NCBI GenBank assembly: GCA_965287045.1
Contig: OZ336882.1
Span: 19,592,001-19,656,000 of the forward strand
Length of the DNA stretch: 64,000 nucleotides
Direction of reading: 5' to 3'
Source: Carcharhinus amblyrhynchos
Taxonomy: Eukaryota
How positions within the stretch are numbered: position 1 is the stretch's first letter; the number at the start of each line of letters is the position of its first letter. Position numbers: made by a program. Shown in pieces: positions 1 to 54,000 of the stretch.

Positions 1-3000
1 AGGTAGATCCATAGAATTAGTTGCAGAAATAGGACAAGGGAACACAGGTTCGCAACCATTTTGAGATGATTTAGGACTCATATTGGACATGTCCTCTATA
101 CAGTTAATGATTTATATGTGAAATATATGGAGTTCATTCATTCACACAGTATGAGTGTCACTGGCTCAGCTATCGTTTATTGTCCATCACTAATTTCCCT
201 TGAGAAGGTGATGGTGCGCTGCCTTCTTGAACTGCCGCAGCCCATGTGGCATAGGTACACCCACAGGGAGCAATTCCAGGATTTTGACCCAATAAAAATG
301 AAAGAGCTGCAGTCTACTTTCAAGTCAGGATGCTAAGTAGCTTGGAGTGAAATTTGCAGATGGTGTGTTCCTATACATCTGCTGCCCTTGTCCTTCTAGG
401 TAGAGGGCACAGATTTAAAAGATGCTATTAAAAGAACCTTGGTTAGTTACTGCAGTGCATCTTATAGGTAATGCACAATGCTGCTACTATGCGTTGGTGG
501 TGGTGCAAGTGAATATATAGAATCATGGATGGGGTGCCAATCAAGCAGGTTCCTTTATCCTGGATGACTTTGAGCTTCTTGAATGTTGTTGGAGTTGTAT
601 TCATCCAGGCAAGTGGAGAGTATTCCTTGACACTCCTTAGTTGTGCCTTGTGTTTGGTAGACAGGCTTATGGTTTAGAGAGTTGGGGGTGAGTTATATGC
701 CACAAAACTCCCAGCTGCTGACTTGCTCTTGTAGCCGGAGTATTTATGTGGCTAGCTTCTAGTTAATGGTAACCTCAGCATATTGATACTGTAGGATTCA
801 GTGATAGTATTGCCATTGAAGAGGAGAGGGGCATGATGGTTAGATACATTCTTCTTGGAGTTGGTCATTGCCTGGCCCTTATCAGACACAAATGGTAGTT
901 GCCATTAATCAGCCCACACCTGAATGTTGTCTGGGTATTTCTGCACATGGACACAGGCTTCAGTAACTGAGGAGCTACGAATGGTTCTGAGCATTGTGCA
1001 ATTATCCGTGAGCTTCCCCAGTCTGGCTTTACGCTTGGACAAACGTCATTAATGAAGTAACTGAAGAGAACTGGGCCGAAGAGACTGCCGTTCGGAACTC
1101 TTGCATTGATGTTCTGGGACTGAGGTGATTGACCTCAACAAGTACAACAATCTTCATCAACTTGTTATGACTCCAAGTAGTGCAAATTTTTCTCCCTGAT
1201 CCCATTGACTTTAGTTTTGCTCTTTGGTGCGACAATTCAAAAAAAGCTGTCCTGATGACAAGGGCAGTCAGATTAATCTTACCTCTTGCGTTCAGCTCTT
1301 TCATCCATCTTTGGACCAAGACAGGAGCTGAGTCGCCCTGGTATAGCCCAAATTGAGCATTAATGATCAGGTCATTTCTGTATAAGTGCCGCTTGATTGC
1401 ACTGTCGACAACCTCTTCCATTGCTTTGATCGAGGGGAAACTAATAGGGCAGGAATTGGTCTGGATGGATTTGGCCTGCTGTTTGTGGGCAGGACTAAGC
1501 TGGGCAATTTTCCACATTGTTGGGTAGATGCTGGTGTTGTGACTGTATTGGAATTGCTTGGCTAGAGTTACGGCGAGTTCTGGAGCACAAGTCTTCAGTA
1601 GAATTGCTGAAATGTTGTCAGGGCTCGTTACATTTGCAGCATCCAGTGCCTTCAACTGTTTCTTGATATCACATGGAGTGTATCGAATTGGGTGAAGGCT
1701 GTTGTGCGACACTTTCACCGTGCTAAATGGAATAGATTTCAAACCAGTTCAGCAACTCAAAACTGGGCATCCATGGGGCATCTGTGATACTGCGGGCCTC
1801 AGGAGCAGACTGAAATAGATCATCCACCTGGCACTTCTGGTTGAAGATAGTCGCAAATGCTTCAGCCTTGTCTTTGACATTGACGTGCTGGGCTCCCCCA
1901 TCGTTCAGTATGGTGATATTTGTTGAGCCTCTTATTATCAGTTATTACAATGTGCACCACGTTCATGACTGCATATGGCAGGTCTGCAGAGCGTAGAGCA
2001 GATCCATCAATTGTGGGTTTGCTTATCTCTGTGTGCCATATGCTGGTTCCATAGTTTATCGTGTAGTAGTCCTGTGTTATAGCTCCATTAGGCTGACACC
2101 TCATTTTTAGTTATCCCTGGTGCTGCTCCTGGCATACACTTCTGCGCTCTTCATTGAACCAGGTTTGATCCCCTGGCTGGGTGGTAATGGTACAGTGGGG
2201 GATATGTCCTACCCATAAGGTTACAGATTGTGGTTGTGTACAGTTCTGCTGCTGTTATTAGCCCACTGTGCCTCATGGATGCCCAAGTTTGAATTGTTAG
2301 ATCTGTTTGAAATCTGTCCTATTTAGCACAGTGGTAGGTAGTGCCGCACAACATGATGAAGGTTATCTTGAGTGTGAGGATGGAACTTTACCTCCACAAG
2401 ATTTAGCGATCACTCCCATCAATACTGTCATGGAGAGATGCATCTGCAATAGGTAGATTATTGAGGATGGAGTCAAGAATGCTTTTCTCTCTTGTTGGTT
2501 TTCTCACCACTTGCTACAGACCCAGTTCATCTCCTTTAGGACACAGTCAGTAATGATGCAATCAAGCCATTCTTGGTGATGGCCATTTCAATCCTCCAAC
2601 CAGAGACCATTGAGCATTGTGAGCCCTTACCATCCTCGGAGCTTCATCCAAGTAGTGTTCAAAGTGGAGGAGCACTGATTCACCAGCTGAGTTGGGGGTG
2701 CGGGAGGAGATGATGGCTGTAAAATTGATTTATTTCTATGTGCCACTCCCATTGTGAAAGTCATCACTATTGGAATAGTGGATCACTCACTGTATTAGCT
2801 GCAGTTGGCTAACCTCTCTGAAAGAATATGCCATTGGATTCTGGACTCGCATGAAACAATTGTTCTTATTTTGTCTGTGGTCTTTGCTGCATATTTCTTT
2901 CTTTCTCTTATTATTCTTTCGTTGTGTCCATGTTTGATGTGATGCCATGAGATATTATGAGGTCCAGGCTTAGAACAATTCCCCCCGGCTGCATACCACT

Positions 3001-51000: not shown

Positions 51001-54000
51001 ATGTTAAATGTTCAAACTATTCTGCTTTCCACTGGGGAAATCATCTCCAGTTCGGAGTTTGGTGGTTTAATTGGCAAACATCTTTCGATCCCAAGCCCCT
51101 GACCTTATCTAACATGCTTAAATTTTAATCTTTCCTTCATGTTGTGCATTCTTTATCTTCCTCTGTTTATTGCAATTTTTTTTCAAAAGCGATTTGCACA
51201 TTGAATTTCTCTGTGATTGCAGGGACATATTAAATTGAATTTTACCAGCTCTTTGGGATGGTTTAGGAGACAGAGTGGCATGTCCAACATCTTCCTTCTG
51301 CCATCTTGCCAGCCAACCTACCCAGAGCTAATTGATTCATGCTAATGGCTGTTAAAGGACACTTTCCACCTTCTCTATCTTTTTATCACTGGTGGGGGCG
51401 TGGGGGAAAGGTTGGGAGGGGTGGGGGGGAGTTGGTGGTGGTTCTGCTGTTGTTTGAGGAGACAGCGAGGTAAATGTGGTCAGTGGGCCTCCTTGTCAGG
51501 CAGTAATTGGTTCACAGAGTCCCCACAACCACCCCAGAGGCAGAGGCTGCGTCTGCAGCAACATCACTGTCAGCCCTCAGGGACCCACTCCTGCCCCTCA
51601 GTGGGGCCTGCCCAATTTGCCCAGCTCACCAACCCCTCCCCCAGCCACCCCATTCCCCCTTAGCTGACTTTGAGAGCAAATGGCCAGTGATGCACCCTCA
51701 GTCTTCAGATGCAGCCCCAGGATAGAGGTTTATAAGATGTTGAGTACCTGATAGAGGTTTATAAGATGTTGAGAGGTATAGATCAGGTGGATTCTCGGAG
51801 GCTATTTCCCAAGGCTGAAATGGTCGCTACGAGAAGACACAGATTTAAGGTGCTGGGGAGTAGGTACAGAGGAGATGTCAGGGGTAAGTTTTTCACTCAG
51901 AGGGTGGTGGGTGAGTGGAATCAGTTGCCGTCGGTGGTGGTGGAGGCGAACTAGTTGGGGTCTTTTAAGAGACTTCTGGATGAGTACATGGGATTTAATG
52001 GGATTGAGGGTTATAGGTAGGCCTAGTAGGTAGGGATATGATCAGCGCAACTTGTGGGCTGAAGGGCCTGTTTGTGCTGTGGTTTTCTATGTTCTATGTT
52101 CTAGAATTGACCATTATTGTTCCTTCATGGGGATGGCAGTCTTGCCAGTAACCGTTTAATTGGCTAATTAACTGGCGAAATGCAGCCCCGTGTCCATCTC
52201 TCTCTCTCATGCACATTCCACTAGCTGCCATTGCTGGAATGACCTGCACCCTCTTGACGTCACAAAACACAGCTGGCTGGTATGACTCCTCTTGCTGAAA
52301 TTTGCCGCTAATCCAGTCCACGAATTTGCAAGTCACTCAGCAAAAATCAGGTATTCAACTGGAAGTGGAATCCAGATGTTGTGTTACTTAAAGGGCCAGT
52401 CACCCAAATTATAGGTTGGGGATTCTGCGACCAGCCACTGGGAGCCACTAGAAGATCAAGTGCTAGGCTGAATAATTCATTGCTGTTTGGACCCCCTTCT
52501 TACCCATGAGGATACCGTATCTGAGAACATTTGTGTTTGCAAAGTGTCTGTAAGTACTGTGTGCAGTGGCAAGTTCCTAATGTCTTATATGGAAAGCGGC
52601 CTGCCTACATAAAGAGCCTGATTATATGCTGAGGGTGAACTCCCCACATTCCACCGTAAATATCAACAACGGGGGCCCACTTTCACTTTGTCAGGTCTTT
52701 CTGCTTCAGTATTTTGGGTAACGGGCCTTTTAATTAGTATGAAGTGCCACTTCCATCTGCCCCCAAGAGGAAGTCCCACCTCACAAACTGCCAGCTATTC
52801 AGAGGCCAACAGCCTTCCATACCAGCATCACCTGCAGAAGCTGTGATAGTCAACGGTGGATCCGGACATTCAGCTACATCCAGGATCTCAGTGGGGCCAC
52901 ACTGATAGGCTCAGAGGAAACATGTTGGAAAGGGGATGACAGGAGGCCAGATGTTGCAAAACAGTGGACAAGGGCACCCCATGGGCACTGGGGAGCTGGC
53001 AGGTAGAAACCCCCACCCCCTTCAACTGGCCATCAACCTACAAGGTTAAGCCTATTAGGCTGCACATTGAACCCCAGCCTCTCCTGCCGCCTGTAAAATC
53101 AGAGCGCTGGCGGGATGAACCTCTTAGGCATTCATTGGCCTATGAGTGGGTGACCCTCCTGACACCTCCATCACTGCTCACAAAATCACAGTGGGAGAAG
53201 ACTAGCCGCTGATGGCACGGTGCCCTAACTTCTGCATCCACCCACCTTCTTTCCAGTAAAATTGAGCCCAAAAACTGGTATTGGCATAGAGACTACAATG
53301 GCAGGGCCTCTGGATTTGTGGGAAAGCAGGTAAGATGTGTCAGAGGCTGCAGAAAGGGAAAATTGTGTGTGATGCCCTCTGCCAACGTAGAGCCACACTC
53401 CTGCATGCAACGAGAGAATTGCAGGAGATTGTCTGGCATCTGGAAGTGAAATGTCATGTCGACCTGAAAAGTCCATTCCCTTTTTCTCGACAGATACTGC
53501 CTGACCTGTTAATCATCTTTCGTTTTTATTTATGGGATGTTTGGGTGTTTGTCATTGGAGCTGTAATCATTGTTGTAATTGTTGTTATTTAAGCTCTAAT
53601 GTGTCTTTATCCCTGTCTCAAGCCCTGTATAACTAGTACAGTCTAGGGTTTTCTGCATTGGCCATCAGTTGACGTGGCTGTTAGCAGGAAATGGATGTGA
53701 GTTTCATTCTGCTAAAACTCAGTCCACTTTCCTCATTGGGGCTGTTGTTTCTGTGTGGTGGGATCCATCTCTTTCAGATGAGAGTTACATTTAGATATGT
53801 ATTTGGGACGTGTTCCTCTTCCCATTCTTTGAGCATGCAAAGGACCAAGCCAAAAGGAGACCCATTCAAAATTCTTAACATCTGTTCTAAACATCTCTGT
53901 GTGTCTCCATTGTGAATGTCTTACTGTTTCTTCCAACTGAAATTCAATTATGTAGGATTGAAGGAATGTACCTGCTGATACCATTTTCCACCAACTTTGA

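What the first reader, a model, noticed from the sequence alone, without database searches (positions are those of the whole stretch)
2721..52518. Synthesis: recurrent ~100-210 bp local copy-paste events of different ages
Seen: inserts of about 205 (2721), 197 (28506), 208 (32620), 205 (34670) and 100 bp (50681/52416). Where a donor is visible it lies 0.4-1.7 kb away, in either orientation, with no TSD or tail, and identities range from ~98% to ~80%. Three cluster within 28.5-36.6 kb. Inference: a persistent templated-insertion repair process with a preferred tract near 200 bp (nucleosome or Okazaki-fragment scale), possibly linked to replication stress in a very large neuronal gene. This is the best candidate for an undescribed process here, but it rests on five cases, two of them with unproven donors.
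Basis: inference. Interest (0 to 1): 0.7.

Follow-up and report, generated by a model that had tools for sequence, protein, structure and literature searches.

The report
Known local DNA-repair duplication scars
Several 80-210 base stretches beside the first coding exon of a teneurin gene are copies of sequence lying 0.4-1.7 kb away, the scar left when broken DNA is patched by copying nearby DNA, a process already described in vertebrates in 2009.

Summary
Repeat copies show which member is the insert at 32620 and 28506 (each splits a SINE-like copy). This is partly shown at 34670 (a Harbinger-type transposase remnant). The pair 50681/52416 cannot be polarised. The 2721 stretch has no donor anywhere in the window, and its insert status is weak. 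The donor of 28506 is unproven, because the insert is an internal LINE fragment as similar to a copy 17 kb away as to the local one. Low-copy pairs are local far more often than chance (P about 2e-4 to 8e-4).

The process is not undescribed. It matches the "repair-mediated duplications" of Pace et al. 2009 in method, size, distance and junction marks.

The 200 bp preference (P 0.03-0.16) and the clustering (P 0.2-0.5) are not established. The link to a large gene is untested, although the gene is a teneurin. The apparent density is far above published values, but it rests on one window chosen after the fact.

The parts
32620..32827 (-). Acceptor of the youngest event (208 bp), an inverted copy of 31982-32189
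   Evidence: 204/208 identical. It splits the SINE-like copy 32525-33098 with no loss of host bases, as shown against copies 9500-9900 (rc) and 41640-42180. There is short filler at both junctions, no TSD and no tail.
31982..32189 (+). Donor of the 32620 event
   Evidence: It lies in sequence with no other match in the window, between two SINE-like copies. The gap to the acceptor is 431 bp.
32525..33098 (-). SINE-like host copy split by the 208 bp insert
   Evidence: Three-way alignment with two other copies.
28506..28703 (+). Insert (195-198 bp) that is an internal fragment of a LINE 3' region; local donor plausible but unproven
   Evidence: It splits the SINE-like copy 28254-28745, with about 15-18 bp of host lost. 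It aligns to the interior of the LINE 3' family and does not reach that family's 3' end. Identity is 164/195 to the local copy, 145/195 to the copy at 13560, and 70/83 to the copy at 46180.
29445..29657 (-). Candidate donor of the 28506 insert, inside the LINE copy 29240-31169
   Evidence: 84.1% identity, inverted, gap 742. A 13 bp indel and 2 nt of microhomology lie at the left junction. The extent of the LINE comes from tblastn. Three-way informative sites: insert+local 10, insert+46180 5, local+46180 6.
34669..34880 (+). Acceptor (about 212 bp), a direct copy of 36324-36604, lying inside a Harbinger-type transposase remnant
   Evidence: 80.1% and 75.6% HSPs. PF13359 DDE_Tnp_4, E 9.9e-6, profile 4-56 of 158, maps to 34343-34495 just upstream. 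No Pfam hit on the pieces after the insert. Continuation of the ORF after the insert is judged from recalled motifs only.
36324..36604 (+). Donor of the 34669 event; about 70 bp longer than the acceptor through an internal indel
   Evidence: Alignment. A 14 bp tandem array and an imperfect palindrome lie directly upstream.
50681..50798 (+). One member of an unpolarised direct pair (100 bp at 92%, 118-124 bp at 87%)
   Evidence: No repeat or protein match polarises either flank.
52416..52538 (+). Other member of the unpolarised direct pair
   Evidence: Gap 1618-1636 bp. A 5'-truncated LINE end (51748-52017) lies between the two members.
1700..1785 (+).
   Evidence: 77.9% over 86 bp. All 6 of 6 LINE proteins with matches on both sides show 67-76 surplus nucleotides here.
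2266..2353 (-). Donor of the 1700 event; native endonuclease-domain C-terminal sequence of the LINE
   Evidence: Covered without a gap by my local endonuclease profile, positions 175-282, at 2528-2214.
2724..2920 (.). Stretch of about 197 bp claimed as an insert; no donor in the window
   Evidence: No match with word-7 BLAST. The lower flank reads as LINE endonuclease (E 0.04-0.06 for the flank piece). The upper flank is not significant. The + strand 3' end is T/C-rich and microsatellite-like.
386..2611 (-). Decayed CR1/L2-like LINE that hosts the 1700 event and adjoins the 2724 stretch
   Evidence: phmmer found 6195 relatives at E<=1e-3. Merged tblastn interval.
43088..43327 (+). First coding exon of a teneurin gene (context only)
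   Evidence: PF06484 Ten_N, E 1.2e-33, profile 1-68 of 367.

Best explanation
These are repair-mediated duplications: scars of germline double-strand breaks. A resected 3' end primed on nearby DNA, copied 80-210 bases, dissociated and was joined to the other end. This is synthesis-dependent strand annealing or alternative end joining with a template excursion.

In the inverted cases (1700, 32620, perhaps 28506) the geometry fits the end facing the donor folding back on its own strand, or invading the sister chromatid in reverse. In the direct cases (34669, 50681/52416) it fits the far end invading across the break.

Shown: the pairs, their polarity in three or four cases, and the junction marks. 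Inferred: the break, the enzymes, and the germline timing. The events differ in age (98% down to 78% identity), so the process recurred.

The likeliest source of the breaks is ordinary breakage, including LINE endonuclease activity. Nothing points to a cause peculiar to this gene.
For: - The acceptor at 32620 interrupts a SINE-like copy exactly. It has 2-3 nt and about 9-10 nt of filler, no TSD and no tail.
- The 28506 insert interrupts a SINE-like copy with a 15-18 bp deletion and 2 nt of microhomology.
- The 1700 insert adds 67-76 nt to a LINE ORF in 6 of 6 protein alignments. Its donor is the same LINE, 489 bp away.
- Low-copy pairs are local in 4 of 9 cases, against about 5% expected.
- A sensitive local search adds only two marginal 33-34 bp matches.
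- All features fall within the published ranges for proximal repair-mediated duplications. Those ranges are: donor under 5 kb, length 50-619 bp, no poly-A in 0 of 39 inspected, microhomology 2-9 nt, filler 1-68 nt, deletion 1-15 nt.
- LINE copies 97-98.5% identical to each other show recent LINE activity. Pace et al. link such activity to the rate of these duplications.
Against: - No genome was available, so I could not show that each duplicated stretch has only two copies genome-wide.
- The 28506 insert is LINE-derived and no closer to the local copy than to one 17 kb away over the shared 83 bp.
- The 2724 stretch has no donor.
- 50681/52416 is unpolarised.
- For 1700 and 34669 the donor may lie in the same mobile element. 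The rearrangement could then predate that element's arrival here.
- Microhomology is short or absent at several junctions.
Confidence: 0.75

Rival explanations
1. The inserts are ordinary mobile-element insertions: short non-autonomous elements or truncated CR1/L2-type LINE ends. These lack poly-A and often lack target duplications. The 'donors' would simply be other copies.
For: - The 28506 insert belongs to a LINE 3' family with at least 8 other copies in the window. It is as close to a distant copy (70/83) as to the local one.
- The 2724 stretch has no donor and has a T/C-rich repeat-like end.
- The window is dense in repeats: 29% of it matches itself.
- A genuine nested, truncated SINE piece exists at 41836-41977.
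Against: - The 32620, 34669, 50681 and 1700 sequences have exactly one partner each in 64 kb, always within 1.7 kb.
- The 32620 donor lies in otherwise unique sequence.
- The SINE half lies between the two arms, which rules out a single element with inverted ends.
- The 28506 insert is an internal LINE piece that lacks the 3' end retrotransposition starts from. It also came with a host deletion.
Confidence: 0.12
2. They arose during replication rather than break repair: a stalled fork switched template by microhomology (FoSTeS/MMBIR type) and copied a nearby stretch, in inverted orientation when it switched strand.
For: Inverted local copies (3 of 5 pairs) and short junction fillers are also the expected products of template switching. 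The teneurin context is compatible with replication difficulty in a long gene.
Against: Sequence alone cannot separate this from break repair. Five of the six events lie upstream of the first coding exon. Published proximal duplications show no relation to gene density. I ran no test of replication timing or fragility.
Confidence: 0.2
3. One reading: a distinct, undescribed process with a quantised tract near 200 bp (nucleosome or Okazaki-fragment size), tied to replication stress in a very large neuronal gene.
For: Three or four tract lengths fall at 195-212 bp. The cluster has P = 0.03 if the donor-less case is counted. The gene is a teneurin. The apparent density is far above published values.
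Against: - The process is in print with the same features.
- The lengths also include 86 and 100-118 bp.
- P rises to 0.16 without the donor-less case.
- The positional clustering has P = 0.2-0.5.
- The window was chosen after the fact.
Confidence: 0.05
4. For the 1700 and 34669 events only: the duplication arose inside a source copy of the LINE or the Harbinger-type element before it inserted here. An example would be abortive gap repair after transposon excision. The scar would then be inherited, not local.
For: The donor and acceptor of the 1700 event lie in one LINE. The 34669 acceptor lies in a transposase remnant, and the donor is 1.45 kb downstream, possibly in the same element.
Against: Both inserts break the element's reading frame, with a 67-76 nt surplus in the LINE. 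Such a copy is unlikely to have spread. No terminal inverted repeats could be found to define a Harbinger element that includes the donor: none of the 20 pairs listed is convincing.
Confidence: 0.12
5. Assembly artefact, at least for the 98% inverted pair.
For: Nothing positive. Reads were not available.
Against: The copy is not adjacent to its template. It differs at 4 of 208 bases, carries filler at both junctions and sits precisely inside a repeat copy.
Confidence: 0.03

Closest known systems
[quoted passage not shown] I read the abstract, sections 6, 7, 11, 12, 14 and 17, and passages.
   Same: Insert of 50 bp or more inside a repeat copy; a single donor within 5 kb on the same chromosome; not tandem; no poly-A; microhomology, filler or small deletion at the junctions; different ages; found across vertebrates. 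The sizes here (86-212 bp) lie within their 50-619 bp range, and the gaps (431-1636 bp) lie around their roughly 1.2 kb peak.
   Different: - Two of the events here copy repeat-derived sequence, which their pipeline filtered out.
- Uniqueness of the donor in the genome was not testable here.
- The apparent density here is at least 2 events per about 18.5 kb of self-matching repeat DNA, against 0.08-0.65 per Mb of TE DNA in their Table 3. This is one window chosen after the fact.
- They surveyed no cartilaginous fish.
[quoted passage not shown] 2004, PNAS 101:10349). Not held; known to me only through Pace et al.'s description and recollection.
   Same: [quoted passage not shown]
   Different: As described by Pace et al., that work concerns near-identical duplicons under 100 bp. 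Four of the tracts here are 100-212 bp, and several are old (78-84%).
Polymerase-theta or synthesis-dependent microhomology-mediated end joining with templated insertions (PMC7165422, PMC2943611, PMC5728401; search listing and abstract openings only)
   Same: Copying from flanking DNA in direct or snap-back (inverted) mode, and short templated filler at junctions. The duplicated hexamer at the right junction of 32620 is an example.
   Different: From my own knowledge, the templated tracts in those systems are usually tens of bases, from templates very near the break. Here the tracts are 86-212 bp, from 0.4-1.7 kb away. No enzyme can be assigned from sequence.
MMBIR/FoSTeS templated insertions (PMC8421209; listing and abstract opening only)
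   Same: Template switching at microhomology gives local templated insertions, including inverted ones.
   Different: It is described mainly for somatic or cancer genomes and for complex rearrangements. Here there are single simple insertions fixed in a germline assembly.

Membership tests
Repair-mediated duplication (Pace et al. 2009) | Insert of at least 50 bp interrupting an identifiable repeat copy, which gives donor/acceptor polarity | tested here: met
   Met for 32620, 28506 and 1700 (6 of 6 protein alignments). Partly met for 34669 (upstream only; negative downstream). Weak for 2724. Not met for 50681/52416.
Repair-mediated duplication (Pace et al. 2009) | [quoted passage not shown] | not testable with these tools
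   No genome of this organism was on hand. Within the window there is one partner each for 32620, 34669, 50681 and 1700. There are several partners for 28506 and none for 2724.
Repair-mediated duplication (Pace et al. 2009) | Donor on the same chromosome within 5 kb and more than 50 bp away (not tandem) | tested here: met
   Gaps are 431, 489, 742, 1493 and 1636 bp.
Repair-mediated duplication (Pace et al. 2009) | No poly-A/T tract; junctions with microhomology, filler or small deletion | tested here: met
   Filler at both junctions of 32620. Deletion of about 15-18 bp plus 2 nt of microhomology at 28506. Two nt of microhomology at 34669. No A/T tract at any junction with a donor.
Repair-mediated duplication (Pace et al. 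2009) | Empty site at the orthologous locus of a related species | not testable with these tools
   No related genome was available. The only open contig collection holds bacteria and archaea, and I did not use it.
Mobile-element insertion (SINE, MITE or truncated LINE) | Many dispersed copies with fixed ends; target-site duplication; tail or terminal inverted repeats | tested here: not met
   This holds for 32620, 34669, 50681 and 1700: one local partner only, no TSD, no tail, no terminal repeats. It is inconclusive for 28506, which is LINE-derived but internal, and for 2724. The test is window-scale only.
Polymerase-theta templated insertion | Dependence on the polymerase; short tracts copied from sequence next to the break | not testable with these tools
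   Enzyme dependence needs genetics. Tract length and template distance here exceed what I recall as typical (recollection, not a call).
Tandem or segmental duplication | Adjacent copies, or copies longer than 1 kb | tested here: not met
   The copies are 86-212 bp and separated by 431-1636 bp of unrelated sequence.

The most novel reading that the evidence does not exclude
Tract lengths may also pile up near 200 bp rather than near the published median of about 150 bp. That would point to a lineage-specific bias in break repair, or to very long retention of such scars in a slowly evolving genome.
Probability: 0.1. Interest if true: 0.6.

Novelty: new member of a known kind. Interest (0 to 1): 0.3.

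Why it matters
The events are clean, polarised examples of a known mutational process, in a lineage where I found no report of it. They are not a new process.

Their number in one 64 kb window is what merits a follow-up: at least two firmly polarised events with unique in-window donors, and up to five. Published densities are below one per Mb of repeat DNA. A genome-wide count with the published method could therefore show whether break repair, or the retention of its scars, differs in this lineage.

The 98% inverted pair also creates a 208 bp hairpin-capable repeat upstream of a teneurin coding exon. This is a structural feature worth knowing about for assembly and for annotating regulatory sequence.

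Tried and rejected
- **Pfam on ten LINE-region ORFs**: 0 relevant hits of 10.
- **The search for homologous proteins**: with the LINE ORF, none scored. With the transposase piece, 1 candidate and none scored.
- **The protein-atlas search** on the transposase piece: no usable hit.
The organism stayed unidentified.
- **Pfam on single transposase pieces**: 0 relevant of 7. **Pfam on the pieces after the 34669 insert**: 0 relevant of 2.
- **Local endonuclease profile on the upper flank of 2724**: not significant.
- **ARAGORN** and **Rfam**: no hits. Calling the short repeats tRNA-derived therefore rests on my eye only; I call them SINE-like.
- **Search for terminal inverted repeats of a Harbinger element**: none of the 20 pairs is convincing.
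- **Pfam on nine further long ORFs outside repeats**: 0 hits of 9.
- **Thomas et al. 2004**: not held.
- **Rejected readings.** A single inverted-repeat element for 31982-32827 fails because half of the SINE lies between the arms. Tandem duplication of a 1.6 kb unit for the direct pairs fails because only 100-212 bp are similar.
- **Judged ordinary.** The inverted SINE pieces at 16606-16712 and 17263-17406, and the nested piece at 41836-41977, are 5'-truncated copies.
- **Not done.** The supplements of Pace et al. were closed.

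
Full report
**Setting.** The window has no N, a G+C content of about 0.44 and many interspersed repeats. About 29% of it matches another part of itself, and 22% matches three or more parts.
- Two SINE-like families dominate, together with a roughly 650 bp family that is the 3' end of a CR1/L2-like LINE.
- tblastn with LINE proteins found by phmmer (6195 relatives at E<=1e-3) marks LINE coding remnants at 386-2611 (-), 29347-31169 (-) and nine smaller places.
- ARAGORN and Rfam find nothing. I therefore say 'SINE-like' and do not claim tRNA origin.
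- One ORF, 43088-43327 (+), is the start of a teneurin: Ten_N, E 1.2e-33, profile 1-68 of 367. I searched this single exon only and built no joined gene model.
- I do not take the window for human. I could not name the organism, because the database needed to look up the LINE relatives' sources was off.

| Pair | Identity | Orientation | Gap (bp) |
|---|---|---|---|
| 31982-32189 / 32827-32620 | 98.1% (204/208) | inverted | 431 |
| 28509-28703 / 29639-29445 | 84.1% | inverted | 742 |
| 34667-34831 / 36324-36485 | 80.1% | direct | 1493 |
| 50681-50780 / 52416-52518 | 92.2% | direct | 1636 |

The 34667 pair has a second piece, 34800-34878 / 36525-36604, at 75.6%. The fifth case, 2721-2925, has no partner anywhere in the window, even with word size 7 and lenient scoring.

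**Event at 32620.** This is the clearest event.
- A three-way alignment with two other copies shows that the SINE-like copy 32525-33098 is split exactly, with no host bases lost.
- The insert equals the reverse complement of 31982-32189 at 204 of 208 positions.
- Two or three unmatched bases sit at the left junction. About nine or ten sit at the right junction, including a repeat of the adjoining host hexamer.
- There is no target duplication and no tail.
- The left half of the SINE copy lies between the two arms, so the arms cannot be the ends of one inserted element.
- The donor sits in sequence that matches nothing else in the window.

**Event at 28506.**
- The SINE-like copy 28254-28745 is split, and about 15-18 bp of it are missing.
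- The insert is an internal piece of the LINE 3' family and stops about 230 bp short of that family's 3' end. It is therefore not a normal truncated retrotransposition product.
- The inverted local copy is part of a longer LINE at 29240-31169. It is the best full-length match at 164/195, against 145/195 for the next one.
- A copy 17.5 kb away covers only 83 bp of the insert but matches it at 70/83.
- Three-way informative sites favour the local copy only weakly: 10, against 5 and 6.
- The insertion is real and repair-like, but its local donor is unproven.

**Event at 34669.**
- Reading one stop as X, 34262-34504 (+) matches DDE_Tnp_4 (PF13359, E 9.9e-6, 25.7 bits against a cut-off of 24.8) over profile positions 4-56 of 158, at 34343-34495. 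A Harbinger-type transposase remnant therefore runs into the insert.
- The translated pieces just before and after the insert look to me like the continuing transposase. That is recognition from memory; Pfam gives no hit on those pieces.
- I take 34669-34880 as the acceptor and 36324-36604 as the donor, with moderate confidence.
- The donor is about 70 bp longer through an internal indel.
- I found no terminal repeats that would show whether the donor lies in the same element.

**Pair 50681/52416.** The similarity is real: 100 bp at 92%, or 118-124 bp at 87%. No repeat or protein match tells which copy is the insert.

**Stretch at 2721.**
- The lower flank belongs to the endonuclease domain of the LINE on the minus strand. 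My local profile, built from 15 of the 150 retrieved proteins, matches positions 147-158 at 2593-2558 and positions 175-282 at 2528-2214 (E 1.2e-8). It matches the piece directly below the stretch weakly (E 0.04-0.06).
- The upper flank gives no significant match.
- By eye the two flanks read as one continuous protein segment, which puts the insert at about 2724-2920.
- With no donor and a T/C-rich, repeat-like end, this may be a truncated retroelement or a capture from far away. It cannot count as local copy-paste.

**A sixth event.**
- 1700-1785 is an inverted copy (77.9% over 86 bp) of 2266-2353.
- Both lie in the same LINE. The donor is native endonuclease-domain sequence.
- At the acceptor, all 6 of 6 LINE proteins that match on both sides leave 67-76 extra nucleotides.
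- This event is polarised and local. At 86 bp it widens the length range.

**Is it more than chance?**
- Among pairs in which both members have a single partner in the window, 4 of 9 lie within 1.7 kb. About 5% would be expected for random placement. This gives P = 8e-4, or 2e-4 for 4 of 7 after setting aside two short or trivial rows.
- A census of exact repeats of 16 bases or more outside multi-copy repeats finds the same events and little else (13 rows).
- A more sensitive search in 8 kb tiles adds only two marginal 33-34 bp matches.

**What it is.** The features match the repair-mediated duplications of Pace et al. 2009 (PMC2671141).
- They looked for repeat copies split by 50 bp or more of sequence that has one other copy.
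- They found 1136 such cases in human. In 824 the donor lay within 5 kb, and in 753 within 3 kb.
- Mean length was 162 bp, median 147, maximum 619, with a distance peak near 1.2 kb.
- None of 39 inspected proximal cases had a poly-A/T tract. The junctions showed microhomology of 2-9 nt, filler of 1-68 nt and deletions of 1-15 nt.
- The events occur in other mammals, chicken and zebrafish. They show no relation to gene density. Their rate tracks LINE activity.
- The authors relate them to the earlier 'doublets' of Thomas et al.. I could not read that paper.
- My searches found no paper that links these events to sharks.

**Mechanism.** The accepted model is break repair in which a 3' end copies nearby DNA before the ends are rejoined. 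For an inverted copy, the end that faces the donor can fold back on its own resected strand. The orientation of the 32620 and 28506 inserts is compatible with this, as is any inverted local copy. For a direct copy, the opposite end can invade across the break. Template switching at a stalled replication fork would leave the same products and cannot be excluded from sequence.

- The lengths are 86, 100-118, 195, 208 and about 212, plus about 197 for the donor-less case. I simulated a lognormal fitted to the published mean and median. Four of six lengths falling within 17 bp has P = 0.03; three of five has P = 0.16. The shape of that null distribution is my assumption.
- Three events within 6-8 kb has P = 0.2-0.5.
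- The gene is a teneurin, so 'very large neuronal gene' is reasonable from general knowledge. But five of the six events lie upstream of its first coding exon, and I could run no test of replication stress.
- The LINE copies at 11038-11601, 61787-62463 and 63057-63694 are 97-98.5% identical to each other. This points to a more ordinary source of breaks.

**What remains interesting.** Counting only events that are firmly polarised and have a unique donor in the window (32620 and 1700), there are at least 2 events in about 18.5 kb of self-matching repeat DNA. That is roughly 100 per Mb, against 0.08-0.65 per Mb in Pace's Table 3. Three things weaken the comparison.
- The window was picked because it looked odd.
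- Their pipeline was stricter; for instance it discarded repeat-derived inserts such as the 1700 event.
- A slowly evolving genome would keep old scars visible for longer.

Only a genome-wide count can settle this.

**Left open.** I could not test the copy number of each stretch in the genome, empty sites in related species, or read support for the assembly. I could not see the per-event table of Pace et al., because supplements were closed. The organism remains unidentified.

Noticed in passing
window 43088-43327 (+): An ORF that encodes the N-terminal intracellular region of a teneurin, starting at the profile's first position (Ten_N, E 1.2e-33). It is probably the first coding exon.
   Followed up: partly
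window 11038-11601, 61787-62463, 63057-63694: Three copies of a LINE 3' end are 97-98.5% identical to each other. Two lie in the same orientation 1268 bp apart, with different 5' truncation points. This suggests a recently active LINE family.
   Followed up: partly
window 41836-41977: A piece of about 142 bp from one SINE-like family is nested inside a copy of the other family. It looks like an ordinary 5'-truncated insertion rather than a local copy.
   Followed up: partly
window 36185-36326: A 14 bp unit repeated 4.1 times, followed by an imperfect 50 nt palindrome, lies directly upstream of the donor of the 34669 event. Structure-prone DNA next to a template may not be a coincidence.
   Followed up: no
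window 51721-51773: An exact 24 bp match repeated at a 29 bp period lies at the start of a 5'-truncated LINE end, 51748-52017.
   Followed up: no
window 45990-46022 / 48222-48253 and 50463-50496 / 51647-51614: Two marginal local matches of 33-34 bp (E 0.004 and 0.001 within 8 kb tiles), with gaps of 2200 and 1118 bp. They may be short or old events of the same kind, or chance.
   Followed up: partly
window 16606-16712 and 17263-17406: Two inverted pieces of 107-144 bp from the tail end of a SINE-like family lie 589 bp apart (82% identical). I read them as independent 5'-truncated copies, but a local copy is not excluded.
   Followed up: partly
window 19530-20033 and 39306-39829 (also 10141-10404): A low-copy repeat of about 500 bp (76% identical) with three to four partial copies far apart. 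It is unclassified. One tblastn hit to LINE proteins falls at 19532-19654 and five at 39092-39442.
   Followed up: no
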